From assembly GCA_030167145.1 (NCBI GenBank), contig CP126532.1, positions 3,480,001 to 3,512,000 on the forward strand: a stretch of 32,000 bases of DNA, read 5' to 3'. This document shows positions 6,170-22,461 of the stretch, piece by piece. The notes beneath the pieces were generated by a model. That model worked only from the letters and a program-made list of their open reading frames with translations. It was not told the DNA's origin and ran no database searches. A program made the position numbers and the translations under genes. Origin of the DNA: Ktedonobacterales bacterium. GTDB taxonomy: Bacteria > Chloroflexota > Ktedonobacteria > Ktedonobacterales > JADMIN01. Numbering within the stretch: the stretch's first letter is position 1; each line of letters starts with the position of its first letter.

Positions 6170-7264
6170 TCATGCGCGCACGGCGCTGAGGCACAGCATC
6201 GGAATCGTCATCCGCAGTTCGCCGCCATCGGCATCTATACGCGCCTGCAAGCGTCGCTCCACCTCGTTGAACACAATGCGGCGTATCGTGAGATCGGGGA
6301 TGATCGCCCGGAAGCTCGCCAGATAGGTCGTCTGGATCAGTGGCGAGCGCAGAAACGCCTGCGGACTGGGAAACCGCAGCGTGAAGCTATCCGTCACCGT
6401 GCGCTGGGCGACGAAGCCCGCGCGCTCGACCAACTTGCGCGTCTCCTCGATGGTCAGCCGCTCGGCGACAAGCTGTGCGAAGCCGCGCATGTAATCGTCC
6501 AGGCGCAGATCGCGCAGCGTCAGATAGTACGTGTCCAGGAACTCGCGCAGCGCCGATTGCAACGGGATCGTCAGCAGCAATTGCCCCTGTGGCCGCAGCA
6601 GCCGCCACATCGCCCCCAGCGCGCCGATGCGGTCGGGGAAGCTTGTCAGCCCCAGATTGCAGGTGATCGTGTCGAACGAGCGTTCGGGCAACTCGTGGCG
6701 CATGATATCCGCGACCAGGAAGCTGACGTTGCGCAGCCATTCATCGCTGGCTTTGCGCTTGGCAAGCTGGATCGCCTCATCCCACACATCAATTCCCGCC
6801 AGATCGCAATCCTGCCCCAGATAGCGCGCTAGTTCCAGCGTCGGGTAGCCCGTGCCGCAGGCGACATCCAGCACCTGCCAGCCCGCCTCGCGTGGCAGCG
6901 TCAGAAACGCGCTGAGCAGCAGCCGCCCAAACGGCAACGACCACTGTGGCACGATCACCGCGTCGTAGAGTTCGACGAAGCCGGGGTCGTGCAGATCATA
7001 GGTGATGGCAAGATAATCTTCGGTATCCGCCCGCGCGCTCACCGCCAGCCCCGCCGCGCTGAGCGCGCCCGCCGGGTCGTCTTGCGGATGGCCGGTGGGC
7101 ACGGGCAGGTCAATCAGCGCATCGCGGCCCAGTGTCAGATCGCGCAGCGCAGGCATGCGCCCTGTGTATCCGCGCCGTGCGCGCGACGGATCCCAATCGT
7201 CCAGGTCGTCGTTGCCCGCGCCGAGTGAGCCGTATGGCGGCAGCCCCCCATTCCGCTGCGACAT
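6170..7264 (-). CDS. Class I SAM-dependent methyltransferase with about 110-aa N-terminal extension
   Basis: Motif I VLDVACGTGYPTLELA, post-I DLAGIDVWDEAI, RLLRPQGQLLL. ATG 7264 preceded by GAGGGGGGAG. Confidence 0.85.
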   Translation of the reverse strand: MSQRNGGLPPYGSLGAGNDDLDDWDPSRARRGYTGRMPALRDLTLGRDALIDLPVPTGHPQDDPAGALSAAGLAVSARADTEDYLAITYDLHDPGFVELYDAVIVPQWSLPFGRLLLSAFLTLPREAGWQVLDVACGTGYPTLELARYLGQDCDLAGIDVWDEAIQLAKRKASDEWLRNVSFLVADIMRHELPERSFDTITCNLGLTSFPDRIGALGAMWRLLRPQGQLLLTIPLQSALREFLDTYYLTLRDLRLDDYMRGFAQLVAERLTIEETRKLVERAGFVAQRTVTDSFTLRFPSPQAFLRSPLIQTTYLASFRAIIPDLTIRRIVFNEVERRLQARIDADGGELRMTIPMLCLSAVRA

Positions 7265-7321: not shown

Positions 7322-8428
7322 CTACTTCGTTGGCGACGGTGCCGCCGTGCCCGTGCCGCTCGGTGTGCCCGTGCCTTTCGGCATGGGTGAGGTCTTGGGC
7401 GTTGGCGTGGGCGTGCCCGTCAGCACCGCGAAATTGATCGTCGCCCCCAGCGCCGGATCGTTGGCGGGCGCATCCGAACCGTTCGGCACTTGATCGTCCA
7501 GATACACTTTCGCGGTGTACCCGCCCACCTGCGGAATCGTCAACTGGAACGCGACCACTTTATCCACATCAATGCTATACGTCGTTGCCGAAGGATTATC
7601 CAGCGGAAGGAATGTCCCATTCAGATACCAGCGCACCGAGACCTGATGCTTCTCGTTGCGGGGTATGCCTGTCACGGTGGCGATCACATAGACTGTGTTG
7701 CCGGTGACGAAGTACGAGGACGGCGTGATCGCCACGCCATGCACATCCACGCCCTGCGCCGTCACCACCTTCGTCACGTGGTTGCTCTGCGGGCCAGGCG
7801 TCGCGACCGGCGTCACCGGAATATTTGCCGTGTTGAACGTCACCGGCGTAATCTTCTTCGCCACAGGCCCCTGGAAGAAACCCGCCAGCGAATTCTTACC
7901 AAGCAGTCCGAGCAGACCACAACTCGCCAGGCAGATGACCATTACGCTCAGCACCCCGCTCAGCACGCGCCACGTGCCCAGCTTGCGTTTGCGCTTCTCA
8001 CTGGTGGCGGGCACATACACCGGGCGGCGAATGCCCAGGGCGCGCTCTTCTGCTTCAGTCGTGGGGTAGCCGGGAATCGCCAGCGCCGACGCGGGATCCT
8101 GCGCCATCAGCGGCATGCCCTGCTGCACCGGCACGACAGCGCGCTCTAGATCCACTTCATCATAGGCGGGCTGGCGCCTGCGGTTGCGATTACTCGACCG
8201 CGCGGGCGGTTCGTCGTAATACTCCTCGTCCTCGCCCCATCCCGCGCCGGAGCCGCCGCGTCGCTGCCATCCCGCGCCGGAGCCACCCCGCCCCGCCGCC
8301 GGTCGCTGGCCCGTCTGCGATGAATCTTTCCACTGGCGCAACGAGGAGAATGTGCCAGGAGCGGGCGCTCCACACTCAGGACACGGCCCCGCCTTCGGGC
8401 GGCGAGCGCCACACCGGTCACATTCCAT
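7322..8428 (-). CDS. Type-II membrane protein: N-terminal zinc ribbon, Arg/Gly-rich disordered region, single TM, beta-sandwich-like ectodomain, Pro/Thr-rich C-terminal tail
   Basis: ORF 7322..8632 trimmed to ATG 8428 (GGAGGA upstream). MECDRCGARRPKAGPCPECGAP zinc ribbon; KRKRKLGTW then TM RVLSGVLSVMVICLASCGLLGLLG; C-terminus LTGTPTPTPKTSPMPKGTGTPSGTGTAAPSPTK. Confidence 0.8.
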   Translation of the reverse strand: MECDRCGARRPKAGPCPECGAPAPGTFSSLRQWKDSSQTGQRPAAGRGGSGAGWQRRGGSGAGWGEDEEYYDEPPARSSNRNRRRQPAYDEVDLERAVVPVQQGMPLMAQDPASALAIPGYPTTEAEERALGIRRPVYVPATSEKRKRKLGTWRVLSGVLSVMVICLASCGLLGLLGKNSLAGFFQGPVAKKITPVTFNTANIPVTPVATPGPQSNHVTKVVTAQGVDVHGVAITPSSYFVTGNTVYVIATVTGIPRNEKHQVSVRWYLNGTFLPLDNPSATTYSIDVDKVVAFQLTIPQVGGYTAKVYLDDQVPNGSDAPANDPALGATINFAVLTGTPTPTPKTSPMPKGTGTPSGTGTAAPSPTK

Positions 8429-8689
8429 GTTGCTTATCCTCCAGGCTACGGTCCAGACTACGGGCGCACCGCCACAGCAAGCGACAACACCACACCCGTC
8501 ACGAACGTGCCATACCGCCATCCCATCGCGGCGTAGACACCCAGCATTCCCGCGCGCCCCGACAGCCGATGATGGCGGGCGACGCGACCAGAGCGCACTC
8601 GCCAGCATACACGCCGGGTTGGAGAGGGTCAAGGATGAGCCAGGGAAAATAGGAGCATTGGGGGGCTGCCCGCCTGCCGGGTGGGCGAT

Positions 8690-8786: not shown

Positions 8787-9014
8787 ATGGCTGATTCGCA
8801 GCAGCAACACTGGCTCGATCAACAAGCTATCGAACGTCTGGCGCAGCACATCCCCTTCGAGACCGACCCCCAGACCAAAGCCGAATGTATCGAGATGCTG
8901 CGCGGGCTGGTCATCCGCTCCGGGCGCTTCATCAACCGCGACCTGTTCGGCTTCGAGGCCGAGCAGGAGCTACGCCGCCTCGGCCTGTGGGATCGCCTCG
9001 CGGGCGGCGCATAG
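8787..9014 (+). CDS. Small hypothetical protein (75 aa)
   Basis: ATG with GAGGT upstream and strong GC3 bias. MADSQQQHWLDQQAIERLAQHIPFETDPQTKAECIEMLRGLVIRSGRFINRDLFGFEAEQELRRLGLWDRL. No recognisable domain; same strand as and immediately upstream of the TIR triad. Confidence 0.6.
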   Translation: MADSQQQHWLDQQAIERLAQHIPFETDPQTKAECIEMLRGLVIRSGRFINRDLFGFEAEQELRRLGLWDRLAGGA

Positions 9015-9215
9015 GCGCTGGCATTCTCATATCCTCACACCCGAATCCACTGTCGTGGGTTTCGCGGCCAACGGCCATCTGTATAGGGCATGCCATGCCC
9101 GCCGCCGACATGCAATCGTCCGCACGCCTACGCCAAGCATGGGTTGACATGCGCGAACAACGTTGCTATGCTATTGCCGGTGGTGGACGTGGAGCAATGT
9201 GGAGGAGAGGCAGGC

Positions 9216-10259
9216 GTGACGAGGATTCTATTTATCACTCGGTATGATGCCAATACCACTACAGCAAATCGTCTTCGCAATCGTCTCATGGATCTCTTCG
9301 GCCAGCAGACGATATTACAAAATCCGGCCAGCCTCCCCCATCGCCCCGACATCGCCCAATATATAGAGGGCATGCTCTACCAGATGGCGATCAACGCTGT
9401 CGTAGTCGTTATCGGACCGGGCTGGGCAGACACGACCGACGCCCAAGGGCAGCGCGCGCTCGACAATCCTTATGATTCCGTGCGCGTGCAGATCGCGGCG
9501 GCGCTCCGCCTCGGCATGTCAGTGATTCCCGTGCAAGTGGATGGAGCACGGTTTCCCAGCCCCGAAACGCTCCCCCCAGACATCCAGCCGCTGCTCAAAC
9601 GCAATGGCATTCCCCTGCGCGAGGGCCAGGATTTCGAGCGCGACGTGCAGCGTCTCACCCGTGCGCTCAGCCATTGGGTCGCGCCACTGCCCTTGCCGCT
9701 CGACGAAGCCCGGAGGCTCTCACGCGGCGCGAACCTGCGCTGGGGATTGGGCTTCGCTGGTTTGGTTACGGTCATCGGCCTGCTCAGCAACGCACTCATC
9801 GTCTCCATGGCCTACGCCACCCACTCCCAGAGTTTGGCAGATCAACTCAGCAATGCAACATTTGTGATTGGCGCTGTCGCGCTCATCTGCGACCTCTTCT
9901 TGTTCTTCCTCGCCGGATACTTCAAGGTTCGCTCGCTAGGAGCCTGGGCCAGCGGCTCTGGCGCTGGCATGCTGGCTGGTGTCGTCGGCGGTGTCGCCTG
10001 CGGCATCATTGATACAATCGCCATGTCTCTCTACATGGTCGCGACGATAGGCGCGAGCGGCAGAGCGGTTGGCCTCGCCGTCGGAATGACTGGGGCGGTC
10101 ATCTTCACAGGACTGGATATTGGTCTAGGAGTGGCGTTCGCCGCGCTCGGCGGCAAACTGGCCCGCCGTCAATTCGCGCGCCCTCTGCCAGCGCAGCCAT
10201 ATGCGCCAGTGTACTCCGCCACGCCTCCCTCGGCGGGTTGGCCGATGCCACACCGCTAG
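9216..10259 (+). CDS. TIR-like domain protein (degenerate TIR, paralog 1) fused to a C-terminal glycine-rich 4-TM module
   Basis: ORF 9090..10259. Start placed at GTG 9216 (GGAGGAGAGG 5 nt upstream); ATG 9168 is an alternative. The N-terminal 150 aa align without gaps to the two downstream TIR proteins (VVVIGPGW..TDAQGQRALDNPYDSVRVQIAAALRLGMSVIPVQVDGA...LPP...DFERDVQRL). Four predicted TM helices rich in G/A follow (WGLGFAGLVTVIGLL..., FVIGAVALICDLFLFFLAGYF, GAGMLAGVVGGVACGII..., AVGLAVGMTGAVIFTGLDIGLGVAFAALGG). Confidence 0.75.
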   Translation: MTRILFITRYDANTTTANRLRNRLMDLFGQQTILQNPASLPHRPDIAQYIEGMLYQMAINAVVVVIGPGWADTTDAQGQRALDNPYDSVRVQIAAALRLGMSVIPVQVDGARFPSPETLPPDIQPLLKRNGIPLREGQDFERDVQRLTRALSHWVAPLPLPLDEARRLSRGANLRWGLGFAGLVTVIGLLSNALIVSMAYATHSQSLADQLSNATFVIGAVALICDLFLFFLAGYFKVRSLGAWASGSGAGMLAGVVGGVACGIIDTIAMSLYMVATIGASGRAVGLAVGMTGAVIFTGLDIGLGVAFAALGGKLARRQFARPLPAQPYAPVYSATPPSAGWPMPHR

Positions 10260-10322
10260 CTGTGGCATGTGGCTCGGCGCGATTGGCCGATGTGCGGGCG
10301 CGGTGTGGATGCCGGCGACTGT

Positions 10323-12017
10323 ATGAAGTTTGGAGGACGTAGGTTGAGTCGAGTGTTCATCTCCTATCGGCGCGATGATAGCGCCGCGATCTGCGGACGC
10401 ATGTACGATCGGCTCGTCGCCGCGTATGGACGCGATGCCATCTTCAAAGATGTAGACTCCATCCCGCTTGGGACCGACTTCGAGCAATATATCGGCTCGA
10501 TTATTCAGCAGAGCGTGGCGCAGGTAGTCGTCATCGGTGCGCGCTGGCTCAACATCACCGATGCGAACGGCCACCGCCGCCTGGACAACCCGCGCGATGT
10601 GGTGCGGCTGGAAATAGAATCGGCGCTCCGGCGCGGCCTACCCGTCATTCCCGTGCTGGTCAATGGTGCAGTGATGCCGCCGCCCGATCAATTGCCGCCA
10701 AGCCTTCAGCAACTCGCCTGGCTGCCAGGGATACCCATCCGGCTCGATCCCGACTTCGACGGCGATATGCAGCGGCTCATCACGACACTCGCCCAATGGC
10801 TGCGCGCGCGCCAACCGCCCAGCGCGCAACCCCACGCCGCGCAGGTCGGTCCATGGCCGGTGACCACGCCAACTTCATATGGCGCTCCTCCTGCATACAC
10901 GCAGGGCGCCGCGCCGATAGGCGCATACCCATCGCAAGCAGGCGCTTACGGCGTGGCCGTGTATCCATCCAGTGGATATAGTCAAGCCGCGTATCAGCAG
11001 ACGCCAGTCGCGCCTTACGCCCCTGGTCCGCTTGCTCCGCACGCGAGCGCCGCCTCGAAACGATCTAAGCGTGGCCTCTGGATCGCCATGAGCATCGTCG
11101 CCGTCCTGGCGCTGCTCATTGGCGGCGGCAGCCTCGCCTTCCTCTTCGCAGCTTCACAAGCCACCCCCTATGCTGGCACAGAATCGTTCACGGACATCAT
11201 TGCCACCCAGAGCGGGCAGTGCTGGGCCGTCGGCTCGAATGGAACCATTATCCATACCCAGAACGGCGTGTGGTATCAGGATCAAAGTCCAACCCATGAA
11301 TTCTTGGAGAGCATAGCCATGTCTCAGGATGGCAAGCTCGGCTGGGCCGTCGGCGATAACGGCGTCATCGTGGGCTATGCGAACGGCAAATGGACGCTCT
11401 ACCCCACCGTTACCTCCATCCGGCTGCTGAGCGTCTCCATTCTGCCCGATGGCAGCGAAGGCTGGGCCGTCGGCACGGACACTGGTGGTCAGGCAATTAT
11501 TCTGCGCTATCACAATGGCGCATGGACCATCCGAGACCAGCAAGCTAGTGATATTTTCTTGAGGGCTGTAGTGGCAATCTCGCCCTCCGATGCCTGGATC
11601 GGCGGCGTTTCGTTATTTCACTTCAATGGCAAAGAGTGGAGCATCTACGCCGATGAAGCCAGTGTCAGTCATATGGCGGCGCTCTCAGCCTCCGATATCT
11701 GGGGCGCGGGCTTTAGTGGAGTGCTGCACTACGATGGCTCGGTATGGCGGGTGGCCCCCTCATCGGGGCCAAAGGATGCCGTGCTGAATGGGATAGCGAT
11801 GGCGTCACCATCCGAAGGCTGGGCCGTCGGCGACACCGGCATCATCCTGCATTACACCAGCGGCAATTGGGTCGCCTACGCCAATCCGTCCAGCGGGCCG
11901 GATCTCAACGCGGTGGCAATGGTCTCAGCTACCGATGGCTGGATTGTCGGCAGCAATGGCCTCATCATGCGCTACCAGCACGGCGCCTGGACAACCTACA
12001 ACAAAAGCCAATCATGA
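10323..12017 (+). CDS. TIR domain protein (paralog 2, canonical motifs) - PY/AY-rich linker - single TM - 7-bladed beta-propeller (Ycf48/BNR-like) ectodomain
   Basis: ORF 10269..12017. Likely start is ATG 10323, or TTG 10344 (GGAGGA 6 nt upstream, giving M-SRVFISYRRDD). TIR_2-type signature FISYRRDD...VVVIGARW...DNPRDVVRLEIESALRRGLPVIPVLVNGA. SKRSKRG then TM LWIAMSIVAVLALLIGGGSLAFLF. Seven repeats of about 40 aa of the form (D/E)GWAVG-x-G-I/V-hh-Y/H-x-G-x-W. Confidence 0.88.
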   Translation: MKFGGRRLSRVFISYRRDDSAAICGRMYDRLVAAYGRDAIFKDVDSIPLGTDFEQYIGSIIQQSVAQVVVIGARWLNITDANGHRRLDNPRDVVRLEIESALRRGLPVIPVLVNGAVMPPPDQLPPSLQQLAWLPGIPIRLDPDFDGDMQRLITTLAQWLRARQPPSAQPHAAQVGPWPVTTPTSYGAPPAYTQGAAPIGAYPSQAGAYGVAVYPSSGYSQAAYQQTPVAPYAPGPLAPHASAASKRSKRGLWIAMSIVAVLALLIGGGSLAFLFAASQATPYAGTESFTDIIATQSGQCWAVGSNGTIIHTQNGVWYQDQSPTHEFLESIAMSQDGKLGWAVGDNGVIVGYANGKWTLYPTVTSIRLLSVSILPDGSEGWAVGTDTGGQAIILRYHNGAWTIRDQQASDIFLRAVVAISPSDAWIGGVSLFHFNGKEWSIYADEASVSHMAALSASDIWGAGFSGVLHYDGSVWRVAPSSGPKDAVLNGIAMASPSEGWAVGDTGIILHYTSGNWVAYANPSSGPDLNAVAMVSATDGWIVGSNGLIMRYQHGAWTTYNKSQS

Positions 12018-12057
12018 CGTGCGCTAACGCCCGTGCCAGTTCTGAGAGTGAGTTACA

Positions 12058-13257
12058 GTGGGGACAATAGCAATCTCATATCGCAGCGAAGATGGCGCGG
12101 CGACCGCTGGTCGCGTCTATGACCGCCTCGCCGCGCATTTTGGCCGCGAGTCCATTGCGCTCGACTCCGGAGCGCCGCTTGCTGGCCCTGAAGCTGTAGC
12201 GGCGCTTGATGCACGCGTGCGCGGCTACAGTGCGTTCGTCGTCATCATCGGCCCCCACTGGCAGTGGGTCACCGATGCCCAGGGGCGTCCGCGCCTTGAT
12301 GACCCGTTCGATAGCACACACCTGCTCATCGAGGCCGCCTTGCGACAGCGCATCCCTGTACTGCCCGTGCTGGTCGAAGGCGCGAGCGTTCTGGATGCGG
12401 GACGTTTGCCGCGCAGCCTGCACACCCTTGCAGGGATCAGGCCCCTTCTGGGGCGCTACGATCCCGATTTTGAGGGCGATATCCGCGCGCTGATCGCGCA
12501 ATTAGAACAATGGGTGCGTGTTGTTCGCGCCCCGCTCGCCAGCAGCTCTGGCGGTGTCACCTATCCCGTCGTCGTGCGCGTGCGCCGAAAGCCGCGTGCG
12601 CTGCTCGCCGTAGCCGCGCTGGCGCTGGTCATCGCGAGTGGGGGCTACGTTGCGCTGTCTCGCCAGAGCCAGCCGCGCCAGACATCCATCGCTACGCCCA
12701 CACCTAACCCGATTCCATCACCAACTGCCATACCATCCCACAAGCATGTCGTCTACACATCTGCCCTGACATCGCCAGATAGCAATTGGCCCAACGATGC
12801 GCACTGCTACTTTCGGACGGATGGTTACCATGTGACCGACGGCTGGGCCTGTGGCGGACCATTGGATCACGGCAACTTCGACCTTACCGTGCGGGTCACG
12901 CTGACCAACGCCACTCTGCACGTTCCCTGGGCCGACATCCACTTTCGCTCGCAAGACAACAATAACTTCTACGATTTCCTGCTCTATGACGACGGCTCGT
13001 GGGCCTTCTTCCAGGAGGTGATCCAGGTAGATAACGCCATCGTCACCGCGCAACCGAGCCAGGCGATTCACGCGGGCCTGGGAGCTGTCAACACCATCGA
13101 GATTCGTGCGCGCGGCTCAGCATTTCAGTTCTTCGTCAACGGCGTATCCGTCGGCCAGGATCAGGATTCCACCTTCCTCACCCCTGGCAAAATCTACCTC
13201 GGCGCGTCGGGCGCCACCTGCATCTACAGCAATATCACGCTGGCCGTATATGCCTGA
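12058..13257 (+). CDS. TIR domain protein (paralog 3) - single TM - LamG/DUF1080-like beta-jellyroll ectodomain
   Basis: GTG start 12058. IAISYRSEDG...VVIIGPHW..TDAQGRPRLDDPFDSTHLLIEAALRQRIPVLPVLVEGA...DPDFEGDIRAL. RVRRKPR then TM ALLAVAALALVIASGGYVAL. C-terminal pattern GNFDLTVRVTL...IHFRSQDNNNFYDFLLYDDGSWAFF...NTIEIRARGSAFQFFVNGVSVG...GKIYLGASGATCIYSNITL resembles concanavalin-like/DUF1080 domains (moderate confidence). Confidence 0.85.
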   Translation: MGTIAISYRSEDGAATAGRVYDRLAAHFGRESIALDSGAPLAGPEAVAALDARVRGYSAFVVIIGPHWQWVTDAQGRPRLDDPFDSTHLLIEAALRQRIPVLPVLVEGASVLDAGRLPRSLHTLAGIRPLLGRYDPDFEGDIRALIAQLEQWVRVVRAPLASSSGGVTYPVVVRVRRKPRALLAVAALALVIASGGYVALSRQSQPRQTSIATPTPNPIPSPTAIPSHKHVVYTSALTSPDSNWPNDAHCYFRTDGYHVTDGWACGGPLDHGNFDLTVRVTLTNATLHVPWADIHFRSQDNNNFYDFLLYDDGSWAFFQEVIQVDNAIVTAQPSQAIHAGLGAVNTIEIRARGSAFQFFVNGVSVGQDQDSTFLTPGKIYLGASGATCIYSNITLAVYA

Positions 13258-18078: not shown

Positions 18079-18458
18079 GGGATACTGGCGCGGACGTGGT
18101 CCGCAGTGCTGCAACTCTTACATATCCAAGTGCGAGCCAGAGTGCCCTGCCAGGCATCAGACCCATACATATGCTCAGCGCAATCATTATCCGATGTAGC
18201 TTCTGTTAAACAATATAAGAGTATTGGGCGGCCAGAGGATGATTCCGGCCCGCAGGGTGGCACATGACGTGCGGCACTCCGCCGACGTGGGGTTACGTCG
18301 GATCGATATCCCAGACTGGTTCCGTGCTGTGCAGGACGCCCTCGGCGTCGCCCGGTATATCGTACATCTCGCGTGCATCTCGGCCCTGGCACAGGCACAC
18401 ACCAAGGACGTGCCGCCCGGACGCCAAGCCGTATCAACACGGCAGTAAGGAGACTTTC

Positions 18459-19790
18459 ATGACTCAACCTACGCCGATTCAACCCGCCCCGACCCCACCA
18501 CCTGGCATGACCTCGCCCGACGTTCGCCCATTTAGTTACACTGCTTCGGATGACGCGCTCGCAAACCTGCGCCAGCGCCTCGTCGCCTCCCGCTTGCCCG
18601 ACAAGGAACTCGTCGCAGATGCGTCACAGGGTGTGCAACTCGCGACGCTGCATGCGCTCACGCGCTACTGGGGAACCGAGTACGATTGGCGCAAGATAGA
18701 GGCGCGACTGAACGCCTTGCCGCAGTTCAAGACCGAGATCGATGGGGTGGACATCCACTTCATCCACGTTCGCTCGAAACATGACGGTGCGTTGCCGCTG
18801 ATCATCACCCACGGGTGGCCCGGTTCAGTGATCGAGATGCTGGAGGTGATCGGCCCGCTCACCGACCCGACCGCGCACGGAGGCAGCGCCGAGGACGCAT
18901 TCCATCTCGTCATCCCGTCGCTGCCGGGCTACGGCTTCTCGGACGCGCCGAAGGAAGTCGGTTGGGATCCCAGCCACGTCGCAAGCGCATGGGCCGAGTT
19001 GATACGCCGCCTCGGCTACACCCGCTACGTCGCACAAGGCGGTGACCAAGGCGCTGGCGTCACCGACGCGATGGCGCGTCAGTCGCCGAACGGGCTGCTC
19101 GGCGTTCACTTTAATTTCCTCAGCTCTTTCCCGACTGAGGTGCTCGCGGCGATCTTCGGCGGCGAGTTCGCGCAGGGGCTATTCAAACGGGTCGCGGTCG
19201 CCGTTGTCGCGTCCCGGGCCGAGAAGGAACACGCGGCGTTGGCTGCGGTCGAGGCCCTCTTCATGCGAGGCTACCTCGCTGAGATGAACACGCGGCCGCA
19301 GACGATTGGCTCCACCTTGACGGATTCGCCCGTCGGGCAGGCGTCCTGGATGCTCGATCACGATACCGACAGCTACGAAAAGATCTCCCGTGCTTTTCTT
19401 AAGGGGCAGCCTTCGGGCGGCCTCACCCGGGATCACATCCTCGACAATATGTCGCTCTACTGGCTCACCAACACGGCCACCTCAGCCGCGCGGCTCTACT
19501 GGGAGAACGCGCAAAGCATCGCCGCCGCCATTGCGTCGGGCAAGAAGGCTCCTGAGGCCTCAGTCCCGGTGGCCTTCACGGTGTTCCCCGGCGAGATCTT
19601 CCAGGCGCCGCGCAGTTGGGTCGAGAAGGTCTACCCCCACCTTACCTATTTCCACGAGGCGGACAAGGGTGGTCACTTCGCCGCCTGGGAAGAGCCACAG
19701 CTCTTCAGTGAAGAACTCCGCGCGGCGTTCCGCTCGCTGCGCCAATCAGGGCAGGGCAAAGTGGGCAACGAGCAGCGCATGCACTCGTAG
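18459..19790 (+). CDS. Epoxide hydrolase, microsomal-EH type (EHN N-terminal domain + alpha/beta hydrolase), paralog 1
   Basis: ORF 18264..19790 trimmed to ATG 18459 (AAGGAG upstream). DVRPFSYTASDDALANLRQRL, DIHFIHVRS, oxyanion HGWPGS, nucleophile segment AQGGDQGAGV, C-terminal GGHFAAWEEP. Confidence 0.9.
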   Translation: MTQPTPIQPAPTPPPGMTSPDVRPFSYTASDDALANLRQRLVASRLPDKELVADASQGVQLATLHALTRYWGTEYDWRKIEARLNALPQFKTEIDGVDIHFIHVRSKHDGALPLIITHGWPGSVIEMLEVIGPLTDPTAHGGSAEDAFHLVIPSLPGYGFSDAPKEVGWDPSHVASAWAELIRRLGYTRYVAQGGDQGAGVTDAMARQSPNGLLGVHFNFLSSFPTEVLAAIFGGEFAQGLFKRVAVAVVASRAEKEHAALAAVEALFMRGYLAEMNTRPQTIGSTLTDSPVGQASWMLDHDTDSYEKISRAFLKGQPSGGLTRDHILDNMSLYWLTNTATSAARLYWENAQSIAAAIASGKKAPEASVPVAFTVFPGEIFQAPRSWVEKVYPHLTYFHEADKGGHFAAWEEPQLFSEELRAAFRSLRQSGQGKVGNEQRMHS

Positions 19791-19844
19791 TCTCACGCTG
19801 ACAGGTGTGGCCAACGTCTCGCAACACGAAGCAAAGGAACTGTT

Positions 19845-21092
19845 ATGACACAACCGGGCATGACTCCAGAACCCAGCATGACCCCGCCACCATCCGTCAT
19901 GCAACCCAGCATGACCCACCCCAACGTTCGCCCGTTCAGTTTCACTGCGGCGGATCAGGCGCTCGCCGACCTGCGCCGCCGCGTGACGGCAACCATCTGG
20001 CCCGACAAGGAACTCGTCGCAGATGCGTCGCAGGGCGTGCAGTTCGCGACGGTCCAGCAACTCGCACGGTATTGGGCGACCGAGTATGATTGGCGCAAGG
20101 CCGAGGCGCGGCTGAACGCTTTCCCGCAGTTCATCACCGAGATTGATGGGCTTGACATTCACTTCATCCACGTGCGCTCCCAGGAGCCTAATGCCTTGCC
20201 GCTGATCGTGACGCACGGCTGGCCCGGCTCAGTGATCGAACAGTTGAAGATCGTCGAACCGCTGACCAACCCTACGGCGCACGGCGGACGCGCAGCGGAC
20301 GCTTTCGATCTCGTGATTCCCTCGCTGCCAGGCCACGGCTTCTCGGGCAAGCCGACCACGACCGGGTGGGATCCCATTCGCATCGCACGCGCCTGGATCG
20401 CGCTGATGCAGCGCCTCGGCTACACGCGCTATGTAGCGCAGGGCGGCGATTGGGGGAATGCGGTCACGGAGCAGATGGCATTGCTGGCGCCGCCAGGATT
20501 GGTTGGCATCCACACCAACATGCCCGCCACTATCCCGGAGGCCATTGCCAAGGCGCTCGCCTCCGGCGGTCCGGCGCCAGCGGGCCTTTCGGCCGATGAG
20601 CAGTACGCATGGGATCAGCTCGACTACTTCTATAAGCACGGCTTGGGATATGCCAACGAGATGGCAAACCGCCCGCAGACGCTGTACGCGCTGGCGGATT
20701 CCCCGGTCGGCCTGGCCGCCTGGATGCTCGACCACGACATCGCCAGCTATCGGCTCATCACACGCGTCTTTGCCGGGCAGGCCGAGGGCCTGACGCGCGA
20801 CGACATCCTCGACAACGTCACCCTCTACTGGCTCACGAACACGGCGGTCTCTTCGGCCCGCCTCTATTGGGAAAGTCACCTCGCCTTTTTCGCACCGAAA
20901 GGCGTCTCCATCCCAACCGCCGTGAGCGTCTTTCCCGATGAGATCTATGCCGCCCCGCGCAGTTGGACAGAAAAAGCCTATCCCAAGCTGATCCATTACA
21001 ACCGGCTCTCCAAGGGCGGGCATTTCGCGGCGTGGGAGCAGCCACAAGCCTTCTCGGAAGAAATCCGCGCAGGCTTCCGCTCCCTGCGCTAG
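19845..21092 (+). CDS. Epoxide hydrolase, microsomal-EH type, paralog 2
   Basis: ATG 19845 (AAGGAA upstream). NVRPFSFTAADQALADLRRRV, HGWPGS, AQGGDWGNAV (canonical GGDWG), GGHFAAWEQP. Confidence 0.9.
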   Translation: MTQPGMTPEPSMTPPPSVMQPSMTHPNVRPFSFTAADQALADLRRRVTATIWPDKELVADASQGVQFATVQQLARYWATEYDWRKAEARLNAFPQFITEIDGLDIHFIHVRSQEPNALPLIVTHGWPGSVIEQLKIVEPLTNPTAHGGRAADAFDLVIPSLPGHGFSGKPTTTGWDPIRIARAWIALMQRLGYTRYVAQGGDWGNAVTEQMALLAPPGLVGIHTNMPATIPEAIAKALASGGPAPAGLSADEQYAWDQLDYFYKHGLGYANEMANRPQTLYALADSPVGLAAWMLDHDIASYRLITRVFAGQAEGLTRDDILDNVTLYWLTNTAVSSARLYWESHLAFFAPKGVSIPTAVSVFPDEIYAAPRSWTEKAYPKLIHYNRLSKGGHFAAWEQPQAFSEEIRAGFRSLR

Positions 21093-21103
21093 CCTGGAGC
21101 GCC

Positions 21104-21141
21104 GTGGGGACGGCGGACACAGGCTGTGCTCGTCGTCCCAC
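21104..21141 (+). terminator. Imperfect long GC hairpin just after epoxide hydrolase 2 (putative terminator or degenerate REP-like unit)
   Basis: GTGGGGACGGCGGACACAG-G-CTGTGCTCGTCGTCCCAC; arms are complementary except for one bulge and three mismatches. Starts 12 nt after stop 21092. No U-tract. The left arm contains GGCGGACA, shared with the REP-like units. Confidence 0.3.
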
Positions 21142-21210
21142 ACCTTGAGCGCGCCGCCGGCTACCTAGTGTCATACCAGCATTGAGCAAGGAGACCAGAA
21201 GGAGATCACC

Positions 21211-22461
21211 ATGACGCAACCCGGCATGACCCCAGAACCCAGCATGACCCCACCTCCCGGCGTGCAAGGGCAAGCCGCTATGACCCATCCCGACGTCCGC
21301 CCCTTCAGCTTCACCGCTTCGGATGAGGCGCTGGCCGACCTGCGCCGCCGTGTGGCGGCGACCATCTGGCCCGAAAAGGAGACGGTCGCCGATCAGTCAC
21401 AAGGTGTGCCGCTGGCGATGATCCGGGAGCTCGCGCGCTACTGGGCGACCGATTATGACTGGCGCAAGGTGGAGGCTCAACTGCACGCGCTGTCGCAGTT
21501 CAAGACCGAGATTGACGGGCTCGACATCCACTTCATCCACGCCCGCTCGCAGCATGATGGCGCATTGCCGCTGATCGTGAACCACGGCTGGCCTGGCTCG
21601 GTGATCGAGTTGCTTGAGGTCGTCGGTCCGCTCACCGATCCGACCGCACATGGCGGACGCGCCGCAGACGCGTTCGACCTCGTGCTGCCGTCTATCCCCG
21701 GCTATGGTTTCTCGGGCGAGCCGACCGAGCTCGGCTGGAATGTTGGTCGCGTCGCAAGCGCGTGGGCTGAGCTGATGCGGCGCCTCGGCTACACCCGCTA
21801 CGTTGCCCAGGGCGGCGATGTGGGTGCCGCCGTCACCGACGCGCTGGGACGCCAGGCGCCCGAGGGTCTGCTCGGTATCCATACCAACTTGCTCGTGCCG
21901 GTGCTGCGCGGTGGCCAGACTGCGGACTCCAAGGAAGAACGCGCGGCGCTTGCCGCGCTCGACACCTTCAGAACAAGCGGCAACGGCTATCTGATTGAGC
22001 AGAACACGCGGCCGCAGACGATTGGCTACGCCCTGCTGGATTCACCGGTCGCTTTAGCTGCCTGGCTGCTCGACCACGACACGGACAGCTACTACAAGAT
22101 CTCCCACGCCTTTGTCGACGGGCAGCCCACGGGCGGTCTCACCCGGGACCACATCCTCGACAACATCACACTGTACTGGCTGACGGGCACTGGGGCATCA
22201 GCGGCCCGGTCATACTGGGAGAACACCCGCGCCGCGGCGCTTGCGGCTGCGGCTGGTCAGCCCCCTCGGCAGGTCTCGCTTCCGGTCGGCTTCACCACGT
22301 TCCCCGACGAGCTCTTTCAGGCCCCGCGTAGCTGGGTCGAGAAGGCCTACCCCACCCTCACCTACTTCAACGAGGTAGATAGGGGCGGGCACTTCGCAGC
22401 GTGGGAGCAGCCGGAACTCTTCTCTACCGAGATGCGTGCGGCATTCCGGTCGCTGCGCTAG
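21211..22461 (+). CDS. Epoxide hydrolase, microsomal-EH type, paralog 3
   Basis: ATG 21211 (AAGGAG upstream). DVRPFSFTASDEALADLRRRV, NHGWPGS, AQGGDVGAAV, GGHFAAWEQP. Confidence 0.9.
   Translation: MTQPGMTPEPSMTPPPGVQGQAAMTHPDVRPFSFTASDEALADLRRRVAATIWPEKETVADQSQGVPLAMIRELARYWATDYDWRKVEAQLHALSQFKTEIDGLDIHFIHARSQHDGALPLIVNHGWPGSVIELLEVVGPLTDPTAHGGRAADAFDLVLPSIPGYGFSGEPTELGWNVGRVASAWAELMRRLGYTRYVAQGGDVGAAVTDALGRQAPEGLLGIHTNLLVPVLRGGQTADSKEERAALAALDTFRTSGNGYLIEQNTRPQTIGYALLDSPVALAAWLLDHDTDSYYKISHAFVDGQPTGGLTRDHILDNITLYWLTGTGASAARSYWENTRAAALAAAAGQPPRQVSLPVGFTTFPDELFQAPRSWVEKAYPTLTYFNEVDRGGHFAAWEQPELFSTEMRAAFRSLR

What the first reader, a model, noticed from the sequence alone, without database searches (positions are those of the whole stretch)
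9216..13257. Tandem triad of membrane-anchored TIR-domain paralogs with three different C-terminal modules: candidate uncharacterised TIR signalling/defence locus
Three consecutive same-strand genes each open with an N-terminal domain of about 150 aa. These domains align without gaps to each other and, in genes 2 and 3, carry bacterial TIR_2-type signatures (FISYRRDD / ISYRSED, VVIG..W, D-N/D-P-x-D, IPVLV-x-GA). After the TIR domain each protein has basic residues followed by TM helices (positive-inside rule puts the TIR in the cytoplasm). Each then has a different module: a glycine-rich 4-TM bundle (gene 1), a 7-bladed beta-propeller (gene 2), and a LamG/DUF1080-like jellyroll (gene 3). The logic is that of Toll/IL-1 receptors (extracytoplasmic ligand-binding domain, single TM, cytoplasmic TIR) but with reversed N-to-C order. 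None of the usual partners of known bacterial TIR defence systems is in the window (no ThsA SIR2/SLOG, no cyclase, no Argonaute, no STING). The combination of two putative ectodomain sensors with a TIR-multi-TM protein, which could act as a membrane effector, is not a described system as far as I know.
Basis: partly seen in the sequence, partly recalled or inferred. Interest (0 to 1): 0.75.

Follow-up and report, generated by a model that had tools for sequence, protein, structure and literature searches.

The report
Clustered membrane TIR receptor paralogs
Three adjacent genes in a soil Ktedonobacterales genome encode membrane proteins that each carry a cytoplasmic SARM1-like TIR domain, only the middle one keeping the catalytic residue; the set is conserved as a unit in related genomes and looks like an unstudied bacterial receptor complex built on the logic of Toll-like receptors.

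Summary
Three same-strand genes (9216-10259, 10344/10323-12017, 12058-13257) open with homologous ~155-aa domains (34-44% identity, E 1e-39 to 8e-24). Their best solved-structure match, by sequence and by predicted fold, is the SARM1 TIR NADase. Each domain is followed by basic residues and TM helices, which places the TIR in the cytoplasm. The C-terminal modules are a 4-TM glycine-rich bundle, a 7-bladed BNR/Ycf48-like propeller, and a CBM66/DUF1080-like lectin jellyroll.

New here:
- Only gene 2 keeps the catalytic Glu (SARM1 E642 equivalent). Gene 1 (Gln) and gene 3 (Leu/Ala) lost it, as did their orthologs, yet the one degenerate TIR that could be tested, gene 1's, is under purifying selection.
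- The triad recurs in the same order in at least three other metagenomic lineages with different flanks. A distant MAG has a five-gene version with the same three module types.
- The TIR belongs to a large multi-phylum subfamily, and most members checked have a single TM helix after the TIR. In 25 of 27 loci from other phyla the gene stands alone.
- No known defence partner, PADLOC system or mobile element lies nearby.

Best reading: a hetero-oligomeric, receptor-like TIR complex with one catalytic and two non-catalytic subunits. Its function is untested. It is a new variant of a known kind and moderately to highly interesting.

The parts
9144..9172 (+). Promoter-like site (TTGACA-17-TATGCT with TG) 44 nt upstream of the g1 start
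   Evidence: Consensus scan, (4 sites found against 1.8 expected, so weak evidence). It would lie inside the ORF if the ATG at 9090 were the start.
9216..10259 (+). Gene 1 (347 aa; NCBI WIG60595.1, 'hypothetical'): degenerate TIR plus a 4-TM glycine-rich module
   Evidence: ORF. GTG start with a GGAGGAG Shine-Dalgarno sequence. NCBI also aa. Orthologs at 51-54% identity.
9216..9695 (+). g1 TIR-fold domain, predicted non-catalytic (Gln at the catalytic position; SYRR box and BB loop lost)
   Evidence: Paralogy to g2, E 1e-39. AF2 pLDDT about 90, top PDB fold hits SARM1 TIR. Gln at the column of SARM1 E642 in all g1 orthologs. dN/dS 0.24 between L004 and L005 orthologs.
9741..10154 (+). g1 four-TM glycine-zipper-like module, N-in/C-in, followed by a basic and Pro-rich tail
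   Evidence: Hydropathy and K/R counts. Four long helices in the AF2 model at pLDDT 55-68. Homologous to stand-alone ~215-270 aa membrane proteins (13 hits among 1.8 billion representatives; alignment). No Pfam family.
10344..12017 (+). Gene 2 (557 aa from TTG 10344; 564 aa from ATG 10323; NCBI WIG60596.1, misnamed 'PASTA protein'): catalytic-type TIR, low-complexity linker, TM helix, 7-bladed propeller
10344..10817 (+). g2 SARM1-like TIR domain with the catalytic Glu (E97 in 564-aa numbering) and intact FISYRRDD and DVDSIPLGxDF motifs
   Evidence: TIR_2 34.3 bits, above cut-off 28. phmmer against PDB hits only SARM1 TIRs, and E97 aligns to SARM1 E642. Glu is present in 115 of 123 family members.
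10815..11072 (+). g2 cytoplasmic Pro/Tyr/Gln/Ala-rich low-complexity linker
   Evidence: Sequence. Only 29% identity to the L004 ortholog.
11085..11153 (+). g2 TM helix preceded by SKRSKR (N-in)
11190..12014 (+). g2 extracytoplasmic 7-bladed BNR/Ycf48-like beta-propeller
   Evidence: PSII_BNR 33.4 bits, above cut-off 27. Seven repeats with paired Trp residues. The same propeller type follows Ser/Thr-kinase and zf-HC2 anti-sigma heads in other proteins (P0077, P0018).
12058..13257 (+). Gene 3 (399 aa; NCBI WIG60597.1, 'hypothetical'): non-catalytic TIR, TM helix, lectin-like jellyroll
12058..12537 (+). g3 TIR domain with Leu at the catalytic position (Ala in orthologs) and a partly degenerate BB loop
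   Evidence: TIR_2 22.8 bits, below cut-off; ortholog P0128 scores 27.9. AF2 pLDDT 80-90, top PDB fold hits SARM1 TIR at TM-score to target 0.77-0.82. Catalytic column.
12598..12660 (+). g3 TM helix preceded by RVRRKPR (N-in)
12733..13254 (+). g3 extracytoplasmic ConA-like (DUF1080/CBM66-like) beta-sandwich, a probable carbohydrate-binding module
   Evidence: PF06439 E 5.5e-5, just below cut-off. The same family and Laminin_G_3 are hit by P0129 and P0073. A profile of 7 homologs hits levanase CBM66 (4azz), E 4e-4. The AF2 model of this part is low-confidence.

Best explanation
This is a three-gene chromosomal operon of a Ktedonobacterales bacterium (Chloroflexota). It encodes three paralogous N-in membrane proteins whose cytoplasmic SARM1-like TIR domains act together as one hetero-oligomeric, receptor-like signalling unit.

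Gene 2 is the catalytic subunit. It has an NAD+-cleaving TIR with intact catalytic Glu, SYRR box and BB loop, tethered by a flexible linker and one TM helix to an extracytoplasmic 7-bladed propeller.

Gene 3 is a non-catalytic co-receptor. Its TIR lacks the Glu, and it carries one TM helix and an extracytoplasmic CBM66/DUF1080-like lectin module.

Gene 1 is a non-catalytic TIR fused to a 4-TM glycine-rich membrane module.

Proposed mechanism: binding of an envelope-associated or external ligand, probably a glycan, to the ectodomains changes how the three membrane proteins cluster. That controls self-association of the g2 TIR, which TIR NADases need for activity. The pseudo-TIRs of g1 and g3 nucleate, limit or cap that assembly. 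The output is NAD+ cleavage (depletion or a nucleotide signal) leading to growth arrest, cell death or developmental signalling in a filamentous, multicellular bacterium.

Shown here: the homology, the domain anatomy, the catalytic-residue pattern, purifying selection on the g1 TIR, and the conserved clustering.

Inferred: the topology (from hydropathy and the positive-inside rule), NADase activity, hetero-oligomerisation, the ligand class and the physiological output.
For: Anatomy.

SARM1-like TIR:
- phmmer of the g2 TIR against PDB returns only SARM1 TIRs (E 7.5e-4 to 7e-3), with g2 E97 aligned to catalytic E642.
- Foldseek of the g1 and g3 models ranks SARM1/TIR-1 first.

One catalytic and two degenerate TIRs:
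- Glu is present in 115 of 123 family TIRs. The eight exceptions are the g1 lineage (Gln), the g3 lineage (Leu/Ala) and one unrelated protein.
- The Q/E/(L or A) pattern is identical in the other window-clade loci where the sequences could be read (L004; L005-L010 for g1 and g2).
- The SARM1 BE-interface residues D594 and G601 are kept, and E596 is conservatively Asp, in g2. In g3 D594 and G601 are kept. In g1 all three are lost (alignment; residue roles from PMC8635717).
- The degenerate g1 TIR has dN/dS 0.24, against 0.25 for the g2 N-terminus, so it is maintained rather than decaying.

Functional linkage:
- The genes are on the same strand with 84-nt and 40-nt gaps and no terminator between them.
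- The order g1-g2-g3 is conserved in a JGI 7.8-kb contig (350/575/391 aa; its first gene is matched by length and position only, its sequence was not retrieved) and in L004. Six short contigs, L005-L010, show g1 followed by g2. Upstream and downstream neighbours differ each time.
- A distant MAG contig, L042, has five adjacent TIR-TM genes (propeller, jellyroll, jellyroll, propeller, 4-TM) at 29-32% full-length identity to g2, g3, g3, g2 and g1.
- In contrast, family members in 25 of 27 loci from other phyla stand alone.

Receptor logic:
- The same propeller type follows Ser/Thr-kinase and anti-sigma zf-HC2 heads.
- The same jellyroll follows Zn-ribbon heads with the same linker and TM layout.
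- So these ectodomains are interchangeable sensor modules behind different cytoplasmic heads.

TIR self-association is required for NADase activity (PMC8635717).
Against: - There is no biochemical or genetic evidence of any kind.
- Hetero-oligomerisation could not be modelled because no multimer tool was available.
- In the distant 5-gene cluster, four of five TIRs keep the Glu. The 'one active, two dead' division is therefore clade-specific and cannot be essential to the ancestral mechanism.
- Topology rests on hydropathy and the positive-inside rule only.
- The AF2 models of the C-terminal modules are low-confidence (pLDDT 50-68).
- Some close TIR-propeller homologs have no TM helix (P0006, P0007), so the propeller is not inherently an extracellular sensor.
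- Ktedonobacteria often carry tandem paralog arrays (three epoxide hydrolases in this window; three Zn-ribbon-jellyroll genes in L040), which weakens adjacency as an argument.
- The ligand is unknown.
Confidence: 0.45

Rival explanations
1. Anti-phage abortive-infection system of the Thoeris/Pycsar logic. On infection the g2 TIR makes an NAD-derived signal or depletes NAD+. The g1 TIR-4TM protein is the membrane-disrupting effector, and g3 is an accessory sensor.
For: - The TIR with catalytic Glu is the hallmark of many defence systems.
- Weak partial matches to ThsB and TIR-SAVED models exist (PADLOC E 8e-7 over about 50 residues; NCBIfam ThcB4 27 bits).
- Related TIR-propeller genes sit beside integrases or transposases (P0004) or directly after an rve transposase as apparent cargo (P0006 in three contigs).
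- The triad has different flanks in each lineage.
- Glycine-rich multi-TM modules are common effectors.
Against: - No PADLOC family is assigned to g1 or g3, and g2 has only a fragmentary match. The NCBIfam score is 27 against a cut-off of 220.
- There is no known signal receptor (SLOG, SIR2, Macro, STING, SAVED, CARF) in 32 kb.
- The neighbours are housekeeping or metabolic genes, here and in L042 (PGI, G6PD).
- Extracytoplasmic sensor domains are atypical for phage sensing.
- Only 3 of 2.9 million viral contigs carry this TIR type.
- Stand-alone homologs of the 4-TM module are not next to TIR or defence genes.
Confidence: 0.2
2. Non-enzymatic scaffold. The TIR domains serve only as homotypic interaction modules that bring three envelope proteins (a propeller, a lectin and a 4-TM protein) into one complex for cell-wall or polysaccharide handling or morphogenesis. 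NAD+ plays no role.
For: - Two of the three TIRs have lost the catalytic Glu but stay conserved; purifying selection was measured for g1's.
- The beta-C to alpha-C segment is the best conserved between paralogs (54-60%; beta-D to alpha-E 32-48%), while the beta-A to alpha-B segment carrying the SYRR box and the BB loop is the least (21-33%).
- Scaffold-type TIR assemblies are well established (PMC8635717).
- Both ectodomains resemble glycan-binding folds.
Against: - g2 and its orthologs retain every catalytic-pocket and BB-loop motif at high conservation (65-74% identity in the TIR against 44% in the propeller).
- The wider family keeps the Glu in 115 of 123 members. That argues for selection on catalysis, at least in g2.
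Confidence: 0.15
3. Lineage-specific tandem duplication without functional coupling. These are three independent single-protein sensors that happen to be neighbours.
For: - Tandem paralog arrays are frequent in this lineage (three epoxide hydrolases at 18264-22458; three Zn-ribbon-jellyroll genes in L040).
- Family members in other phyla work as single genes (25 of 27 loci stand alone).
- More distant g2-like genes stand alone.
Against: - Order and content are conserved across lineages that have diverged to about 45-55% protein identity, with unrelated flanks.
- The three module types co-cluster again at about 30% identity.
- The catalytic residue is lost in g1 and g3 but never in g2.
- Intergenic gaps are short and lack terminators.
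Confidence: 0.12

Closest known systems
SARM1 / TIR-1 TIR domain (metazoan NAD+ hydrolase)
   Same: It is the closest solved structure to all three TIRs, by sequence for g2 and by predicted fold for g1 and g3. The FISYRR box, a BB loop with conserved Asp and Gly, and the catalytic Glu in the D-x-V-x-x-E motif are shared with g2.
   Different: SARM1 is a soluble, mitochondria-associated octamer with ARM and SAM domains N-terminal to the TIR, regulated by NMN/NAD+. Here the TIR is N-terminal, membrane-tethered and paired with extracytoplasmic modules. Identity is only about 20-25%. g1 and g3 lack the Glu.
Toll-like / IL-1 receptor complexes (e.g. the IL-1R1 with IL-1RAcP heterodimer)
   Same: The logic is the same: ectodomain, single TM helix, cytoplasmic TIR. 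Several different TIR-bearing chains with different ectodomains are presumed to assemble through their TIRs.
   Different: The polarity is opposite (N-in, type II). The ectodomains are unrelated (propeller and lectin rather than LRR or Ig). The TIR is of the enzyme (SARM1-like) type rather than the scaffold type. This is an analogy, not membership.
Bacterial TIR defence systems (Thoeris ThsB, TIR-STING, TIR-SAVED, SPARTA TIR-APAZ, Pycsar TIR)
   Same: They share a TIR domain with the catalytic Glu and activation by oligomerisation. Some systems pair a TIR signal generator with a TM effector.
   Different: There is no ThsA, STING, SAVED, APAZ/Ago or cyclase partner. Only fragmentary, far sub-threshold model matches were found. 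The proteins are membrane-anchored with ectodomains, and the genomic context is housekeeping.
Paired plant TIR-NLRs (RPS4/RRS1)
   Same: These are genetically linked TIR proteins whose TIR domains heterodimerise (structure 4c6t appears among the fold hits). From my own knowledge, only one partner is signalling-competent and the other is regulatory.
   Different: They are cytoplasmic NB-LRR proteins with no membrane or ectodomain, and they are eukaryotic. The resemblance is conceptual only.
Bacterial eSTK (PknB-like) kinases and zf-HC2 anti-sigma factors with extracytoplasmic sensor domains
   Same: The layout is identical: N-terminal cytoplasmic signalling head, linker, one TM helix, extracytoplasmic sensor. 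The same BNR/Ycf48-like propeller is found behind kinase (P0077) and anti-sigma (P0018) heads.
   Different: The head here is a TIR rather than a kinase or anti-sigma domain.
N-terminal TIR, kinase or caspase heads fused to FGS (C-type lectin) or GUN4 in multicellular bacteria (Kaur et al. 2020, PMC7159879; Vallota-Eastman et al. 2020, PMC7517822)
   Same: The same TIR subfamily is fused to FGE-sulfatase and GUN4 domains (P0023, P0025, P0045 and others). The syntax is an N-terminal enzymatic head with a C-terminal ligand-binding module, and the lineages are multicellular prokaryotes.
   Different: Those surveys do not describe clusters of TIR-TM paralogs, the propeller, CBM66-like or 4-TM partners, or the split between catalytic and pseudo-TIR. 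No vWA-MoxR, STAND or DGR components are present here.

Membership tests
TIR_2 (Pfam PF13676) / TIR fold | Score above the Pfam gathering threshold, or a TIR flavodoxin-like fold | tested here: met
   g2 scores 34.3 bits against cut-off 28. g3 scores 22.8 bits (below), but its ortholog P0128 scores 27.9 and its AF2 TIR (pLDDT 80-90) matches the SARM1 TIR at TM-score to target 0.77-0.82. g1 has no Pfam hit, but BLASTP to g2 gives E 1e-39 and its AF2 TIR (pLDDT about 90) matches the SARM1 TIR at TM-score to target 0.72-0.77.
Catalytic TIR NADases (SARM1, plant TIRs, ThsB, AbTir) | Conserved catalytic glutamate in alpha-C (SARM1 E642) | tested here: met
   This holds for g2 only. E97 aligns to E642, and the same is true of all g2 orthologs.
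Catalytic TIR NADases (SARM1, plant TIRs, ThsB, AbTir) | The same glutamate in g1 and g3 | tested here: not met
   g1 and its orthologs have Gln. g3 has Leu and its orthologs Ala. g1 has also lost the SYRR box and the BB-loop Asp and Gly.
Catalytic TIR NADases | Demonstrated NAD+ cleavage that depends on self-association | not testable with these tools
   This needs an enzyme assay.
Thoeris (ThsA + ThsB) | An adjacent ThsA effector (SIR2/SLOG or Macro-TM), and a ThsB match at family threshold | tested here: not met
   No SIR2, SLOG or Macro gene was found among about 30 window proteins scanned. The PADLOC ThsB match covers only about 50 residues. NCBIfam ThcB4 scores 27.4 bits against a cut-off of 220.
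Ycf48/HCF136 photosystem II assembly factor | Equivalog-level match, in a photosynthetic organism | tested here: not met
   The NCBIfam Ycf48 equivalog scores 32.7 bits against a cut-off of 326. Only the BNR-type propeller fold is shared (Pfam PSII_BNR 33.4 bits against cut-off 27). JGI's name 'photosystem II stability/assembly factor-like' reflects the fold only.
DUF1080 / 3-keto-disaccharide hydrolase (PF06439), CBM66 | Score above the Pfam threshold, or a ConA-like jellyroll | tested here: inconclusive
   g3 scores 23.7 bits against cut-off 26.8. P0129 scores 20.8 and P0073 25.7 bits, both with additional Laminin_G_3 hits. A profile of 7 homologs hits CBM66 (4azz) at E 4e-4. The AF2 model of this part has pLDDT of only 50-65.
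Toll-like / IL-1 receptors | Type I topology, LRR or Ig ectodomain, scaffold-type TIR with Box 2/Box 3 | tested here: not met
   The topology is N-in. The ectodomains are a propeller and a lectin. The TIR is nearest to the enzyme-type SARM1. The resemblance is an analogy only.
SLATT / known TM effectors of nucleotide-signalling systems | Match of the g1 membrane module to a described effector family | tested here: not met
   The g1 C-terminus and its homologs have no Pfam, NCBIfam or PADLOC hit. It is a separate 4-TM family.

The most novel reading that the evidence does not exclude
Bacteria possess true outside-in TIR receptors. This would be a heteromeric membrane complex in which extracytoplasmic ligand binding by a propeller and a lectin ectodomain gates a SARM1-type NADase through pseudo-TIR co-receptor subunits. 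That is a prokaryotic counterpart of TLR/IL-1R heterocomplexes using enzyme-type TIR chemistry. The large multi-phylum TIR-TM subfamily it belongs to would then be a so far unrecognised class of one-component transmembrane signalling or cell-death receptors, and the nearest bacterial relatives of the SARM1 TIR.
Probability: 0.3. Interest if true: 0.85.

Novelty: new variant of a known kind. Interest (0 to 1): 0.62.

Why it matters
TIR domains are central to immunity in animals, plants and bacteria. All characterised bacterial TIR systems, however, sense events inside the cell.

Here a SARM1-like TIR is wired as the cytoplasmic head of membrane proteins with extracytoplasmic sensor-type modules. 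It is combined in a conserved gene cluster with two pseudo-enzyme TIR paralogs.

If the cluster works as proposed, three things follow:
- The receptor logic of ectodomain, TM helix and TIR exists in bacteria.
- Nature would have provided a test case for how catalytically dead TIRs regulate an active one.
- A large, uncharacterised, multi-phylum TIR-TM subfamily (hundreds of proteins, annotated 'hypothetical', 'PSII assembly factor-like' or 'PASTA protein') would gain a first functional handle.

It also bears on the long-debated bacterial origin of the SARM1 TIR.

Tried and rejected
- PADLOC and NCBIfam on the three proteins and ten neighbours found no defence system. There was only a fragmentary ThsB-like match and a generic methyltransferase hit.
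- A scan of GTDB species representatives with a g3 ortholog alignment returned only TIR-domain relatives in other phyla (at most 39% identity over the N-terminus) and no true orthologs. The scan relies on two peptide patterns and would miss diverged clusters such as L042.
- A scan of JGI metagenome contigs with the g1 alignment found nothing. The second scan, with g3, found only L040 (Zn-ribbon-jellyroll paralogs) and one TIR fragment.
- A viral contig scan with a family TIR profile gave 3 hits in 2.9 million contigs, so there is no meaningful phage association.
- The contexts of stand-alone 4-TM homologs (P0146, P0147) contain no TIR genes. The 4-TM family as such is therefore not TIR-linked.
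- The contexts of more distant g2-like genes (P0010, P0009, P0004, P0006) show single genes.
- Foldseek against AFDB50 was not available.
- The AF2 models of the 4-TM bundle and the jellyroll were too low in confidence for a fold-based assignment. The galectin and CBM40 hits to the g3 C-terminus have rmsd above 12 Å, and I do not rely on them.
- The 75-aa upstream ORF has no family hit and is not conserved next to the triad, so I rejected it as a component.
- I considered that g1 starts at the ATG at 9090 or at the JGI start 9288. I rejected both in favour of GTG 9216, on the Shine-Dalgarno sequence, the NCBI call and the conserved V-[ST]-R-I-L N-terminus in orthologs.

Full report
**1. What is in the sequence**

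The region holds three consecutive + strand ORFs: 9090/9216-10259, 10269/10323-12017 and 12058-13257.

Start codons:
- g1: GTG at 9216 is preceded by GGAGGAG. It matches NCBI's 347-aa gene model WIG60595.1 and the conserved V-[ST]-R-I-L N-terminus of orthologs.
- g2: TTG at 10344 has GGAGGA 6 nt upstream and matches NCBI's 557-aa model. ATG at 10323 is the alternative.
- The intergenic gaps are about 84 nt and 40 nt. No terminator-like site lies between the genes.
- A promoter-like TTGACA-17-TATGCT site lies at 9144-9172. This is weak, consensus-level evidence.

The window comes from a 5.07-Mb contig of a Ktedonobacterales MAG (Chloroflexota), with locus tags OJF49_003343 to OJF49_003345.

**2. 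The three N-terminal domains are TIR paralogs of the SARM1-like type**

- Pairwise BLASTP gives 42% (E 1e-39), 34% (E 8e-24) and 44% (E 1e-39) identity over about 155 residues, with a single 2-residue gap.
- Pfam TIR_2 is above threshold for g2 (34.3 bits against 28), just below for g3 (22.8) and absent for g1.
- phmmer of the g2 TIR against all PDB sequences finds only SARM1 TIR domains (E 7.5e-4 to 7e-3). It aligns FISYRRDD to FISYRRNS, and g2 E97 to the catalytic E642 of SARM1.
- The AF2 models of g1 and g3 have confident TIR domains (pLDDT about 90 and 80-90). Their best Foldseek/PDB matches are human SARM1 and C. elegans TIR-1 (E 1e-5 and 4e-6, TM-score to target 0.72-0.82), ahead of the SPARTA, AbTir, RPS4, BtpA and PdTIR TIRs.

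**3. Only gene 2 looks catalytic**

- In an alignment of 123 family TIRs, the Glu is present in 115. The eight exceptions are g1 and its orthologs (Gln), g3 and its orthologs (Leu or Ala), and one unrelated protein.
- g1 has also lost the SYRR box (FITRYD) and the BB-loop Asp and Gly. g3 keeps SYR and the BB-loop Asp and Gly but not the Glu. The roles of the SARM1 residues are taken from PMC8635717 and PMC7075850.
- Between paralogs, the beta-A to alpha-B third is the most divergent (21-33% identity). It carries the SYRR box and the BB loop. The beta-C to alpha-C segment is 54-60% identical and beta-D to alpha-E 32-48%.
- The degenerate g1 TIR is not decaying. Between two orthologs with dS 0.34, its dN/dS is 0.24, the same as for the g2 N-terminus at 0.25.

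**4. Topology and C-terminal modules**

None of the proteins has an N-terminal hydrophobic segment. In all eleven proteins examined (window, L004, L042), the first TM helix is preceded by 3-6 K/R within 15 residues and followed by 0-2. This puts the TIR in the cytoplasm. It is an inference from the positive-inside rule; no dedicated predictor was available.

- **g1** has four TM segments (N-in, C-in). They appear as four long helices in the AF2 model at modest confidence. A full phmmer scan of 1.84 billion representatives with this module found only 13 proteins. These are the ortholog, one further TIR fusion (P0151), and stand-alone 215-270-aa membrane proteins with Pro/Gln/Tyr-rich tails. None has a Pfam family. 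The stand-alone genes are not next to TIR genes.
- **g2** has a low-complexity linker, one TM helix, and seven ~40-aa repeats with paired Trp residues. This is a 7-bladed BNR/Ycf48-type propeller (PSII_BNR 33.4 bits against 27). It is not a Ycf48 ortholog (NCBIfam 32.7 bits against 326).
- **g3** has one TM helix and a beta-sandwich. That domain repeatedly gives near-threshold hits to PF06439 (DUF1080) and Laminin_G_3 in g3, P0129 and P0073. As a 7-sequence profile it hits the levanase CBM66 module (4azz, E 4e-4). It is a probable carbohydrate-binding module.

**5. The wider family**

The g2 TIR is 50-60% identical to TIRs of hundreds of proteins from many phyla. Their C-terminal partners include GUN4, FGE-sulfatase, WD40, DUF1080, PASTA, PAN, YeaQ/YmgE, RDD, DUF308, CHASE2-cyclase, sigma-54 activator, FHA and trypsin domains. 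Most of those checked have a single TM helix after a basic patch.

The ectodomains are shared with other cytoplasmic heads:
- The propeller also follows Ser/Thr-kinase (P0077) and zf-HC2 anti-sigma (P0018) heads.
- The jellyroll also follows Zn-ribbon heads, with the same linker and TM layout (L040).

So these ectodomains behave as interchangeable sensor modules behind different cytoplasmic signalling heads.

Surveys have noted TIR fused to FGS and GUN4 (PMC7159879, PMC7517822). They stress that prokaryotic TIR groups are essentially unstudied (PMC7075850). I found no paper describing this cluster.

**6. Is the triad a unit?**

Yes, on comparative grounds.
- A 7.8-kb JGI contig carries 350-aa, 575-aa (48% to g2) and 391-aa (54% to g3) genes in the same order, followed by RNase J. 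The 350-aa gene is matched to g1 by length and position only; its sequence was not retrieved.
- The Logan contig L004 carries g1-, g2- and g3-like genes (53%, 44% and 45% identity) after an AMP-ligase gene.
- Six short contigs (L005-L010) carry g1 followed by g2.
- Wherever the sequences could be read (L004; L005-L010 for g1 and g2), the catalytic pattern is Q / E / (L or A).
- Most telling is a distant MAG contig, L042 from GCA_036376465.1. It has five adjacent same-strand TIR-TM genes between unrelated, mostly housekeeping genes (PGI and G6PD downstream): propeller, jellyroll, jellyroll, propeller, 4-TM. Their full-length identity to g2, g3, g3, g2 and g1 is 29-32%.
- By contrast, the family gene stands alone in 25 of 27 loci from other phyla, always with the Glu. 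More distant g2-like genes also stand alone.
- The 75-aa upstream ORF is not conserved next to the triad.

Caveat: in L042, four of the five TIRs keep the Glu. The deep-conserved feature is therefore the co-clustering of the three module types. The split into one active and two dead TIRs is a feature of the window's clade.

**7. Defence or signalling?**

Against defence:
- Nothing in the 32-kb window is a known TIR partner or defence gene. About 30 proteins were scanned with Pfam, and ten neighbours plus the triad and the 75-aa ORF with PADLOC.
- There are no mobile-element genes nearby.
- This TIR type is almost absent from viral contigs.

In favour of a conflict role:
- Some TM-less TIR-propeller relatives are apparent transposon cargo (P0006, three contigs). 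P0004 sits beside integrase and transposase genes.

I therefore keep abortive-infection defence as a rival at about 0.2.

**8. Mechanism proposed**

The best-supported reading is a hetero-oligomeric, receptor-like TIR complex.
- g2 is the catalytic subunit.
- g3 is a non-catalytic co-receptor with a different ectodomain.
- g1 is a non-catalytic TIR tied to a 4-TM module.

TIR NADases require self-association (PMC8635717). The pseudo-TIRs would nucleate, limit or cap assembly of the g2 TIR in response to ligand-driven clustering of the ectodomains.

- Shown: homology, anatomy, the residue pattern, selection on the g1 TIR, and synteny.
- Inferred: topology, catalysis, hetero-assembly, the ligand class (glycan) and the output.

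**9. Verdict**

It needs three corrections:
- one catalytic plus two pseudo-TIRs, rather than three equivalent TIRs;
- a widespread single-protein architecture, rather than a unique one;
- no contextual evidence for defence.

It is a new variant of a known kind, namely TIR signalling or defence proteins. It is uncharacterised and experimentally tractable. Interest: 0.62.

Noticed in passing
window 18264-22458 (+): Three tandem epoxide hydrolase paralogs (EHN N-terminal domain plus alpha/beta hydrolase) lie in a row. Tandem paralog arrays seem common in this genome.
   Followed up: no
window 7322-8632 (-): The divergently oriented neighbour encodes a Zn-ribbon (CDRCG...CPECG), a low-complexity linker, a TM helix and a small beta ectodomain, with no Pfam family. 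Its layout is the same as the TIR-TM proteins but with a Zn-ribbon head.
   Followed up: partly
L040 4451-9728: Three tandem paralogs each combine a Zn-ribbon, a Pro/Tyr/Gln/Gly-rich linker, a TM helix and a jellyroll homologous to the g3 ectodomain (shared CFFxxDGYHV motif), on a 0.9-Mb metagenome contig. The same ectodomain is used behind a different cytoplasmic head.
   Followed up: partly
L046 1937-5082; L047; L048: A 450-aa TIR-propeller protein without a TM helix (P0006) starts 6 nt after a 595-aa rve-type transposase gene in three independent contigs, near a P22 antirepressor-like gene and a second transposase. It is apparently transposon cargo.
   Followed up: partly
L042 1796-9104: A five-gene cluster of TIR-TM paralogs (propeller, jellyroll, jellyroll, propeller, 4-TM) in MAG GCA_036376465.1, with PGI and G6PD genes downstream. 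One of the five (gene D) has Ala at the catalytic position, and gene E has lost the SYRR box.
   Followed up: yes
window 10344-12017: The public annotations of g2 are misleading. NCBI calls it 'PASTA protein', but there is no PASTA hit. JGI calls it 'photosystem II stability/assembly factor-like', which reflects the fold only. g1 and g3 are 'hypothetical'.
   Followed up: yes
window 8787-9014 (+): The 75-aa ORF called by JGI has no Pfam, NCBIfam or PADLOC family and is not found upstream of the triad in other lineages.
   Followed up: yes
window 6170-7264 (-): A class I SAM methyltransferase gives a PADLOC 'mad2' hit (E 4e-19) confined to the generic methyltransferase domain. This is probably not a defence gene.
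   Followed up: no
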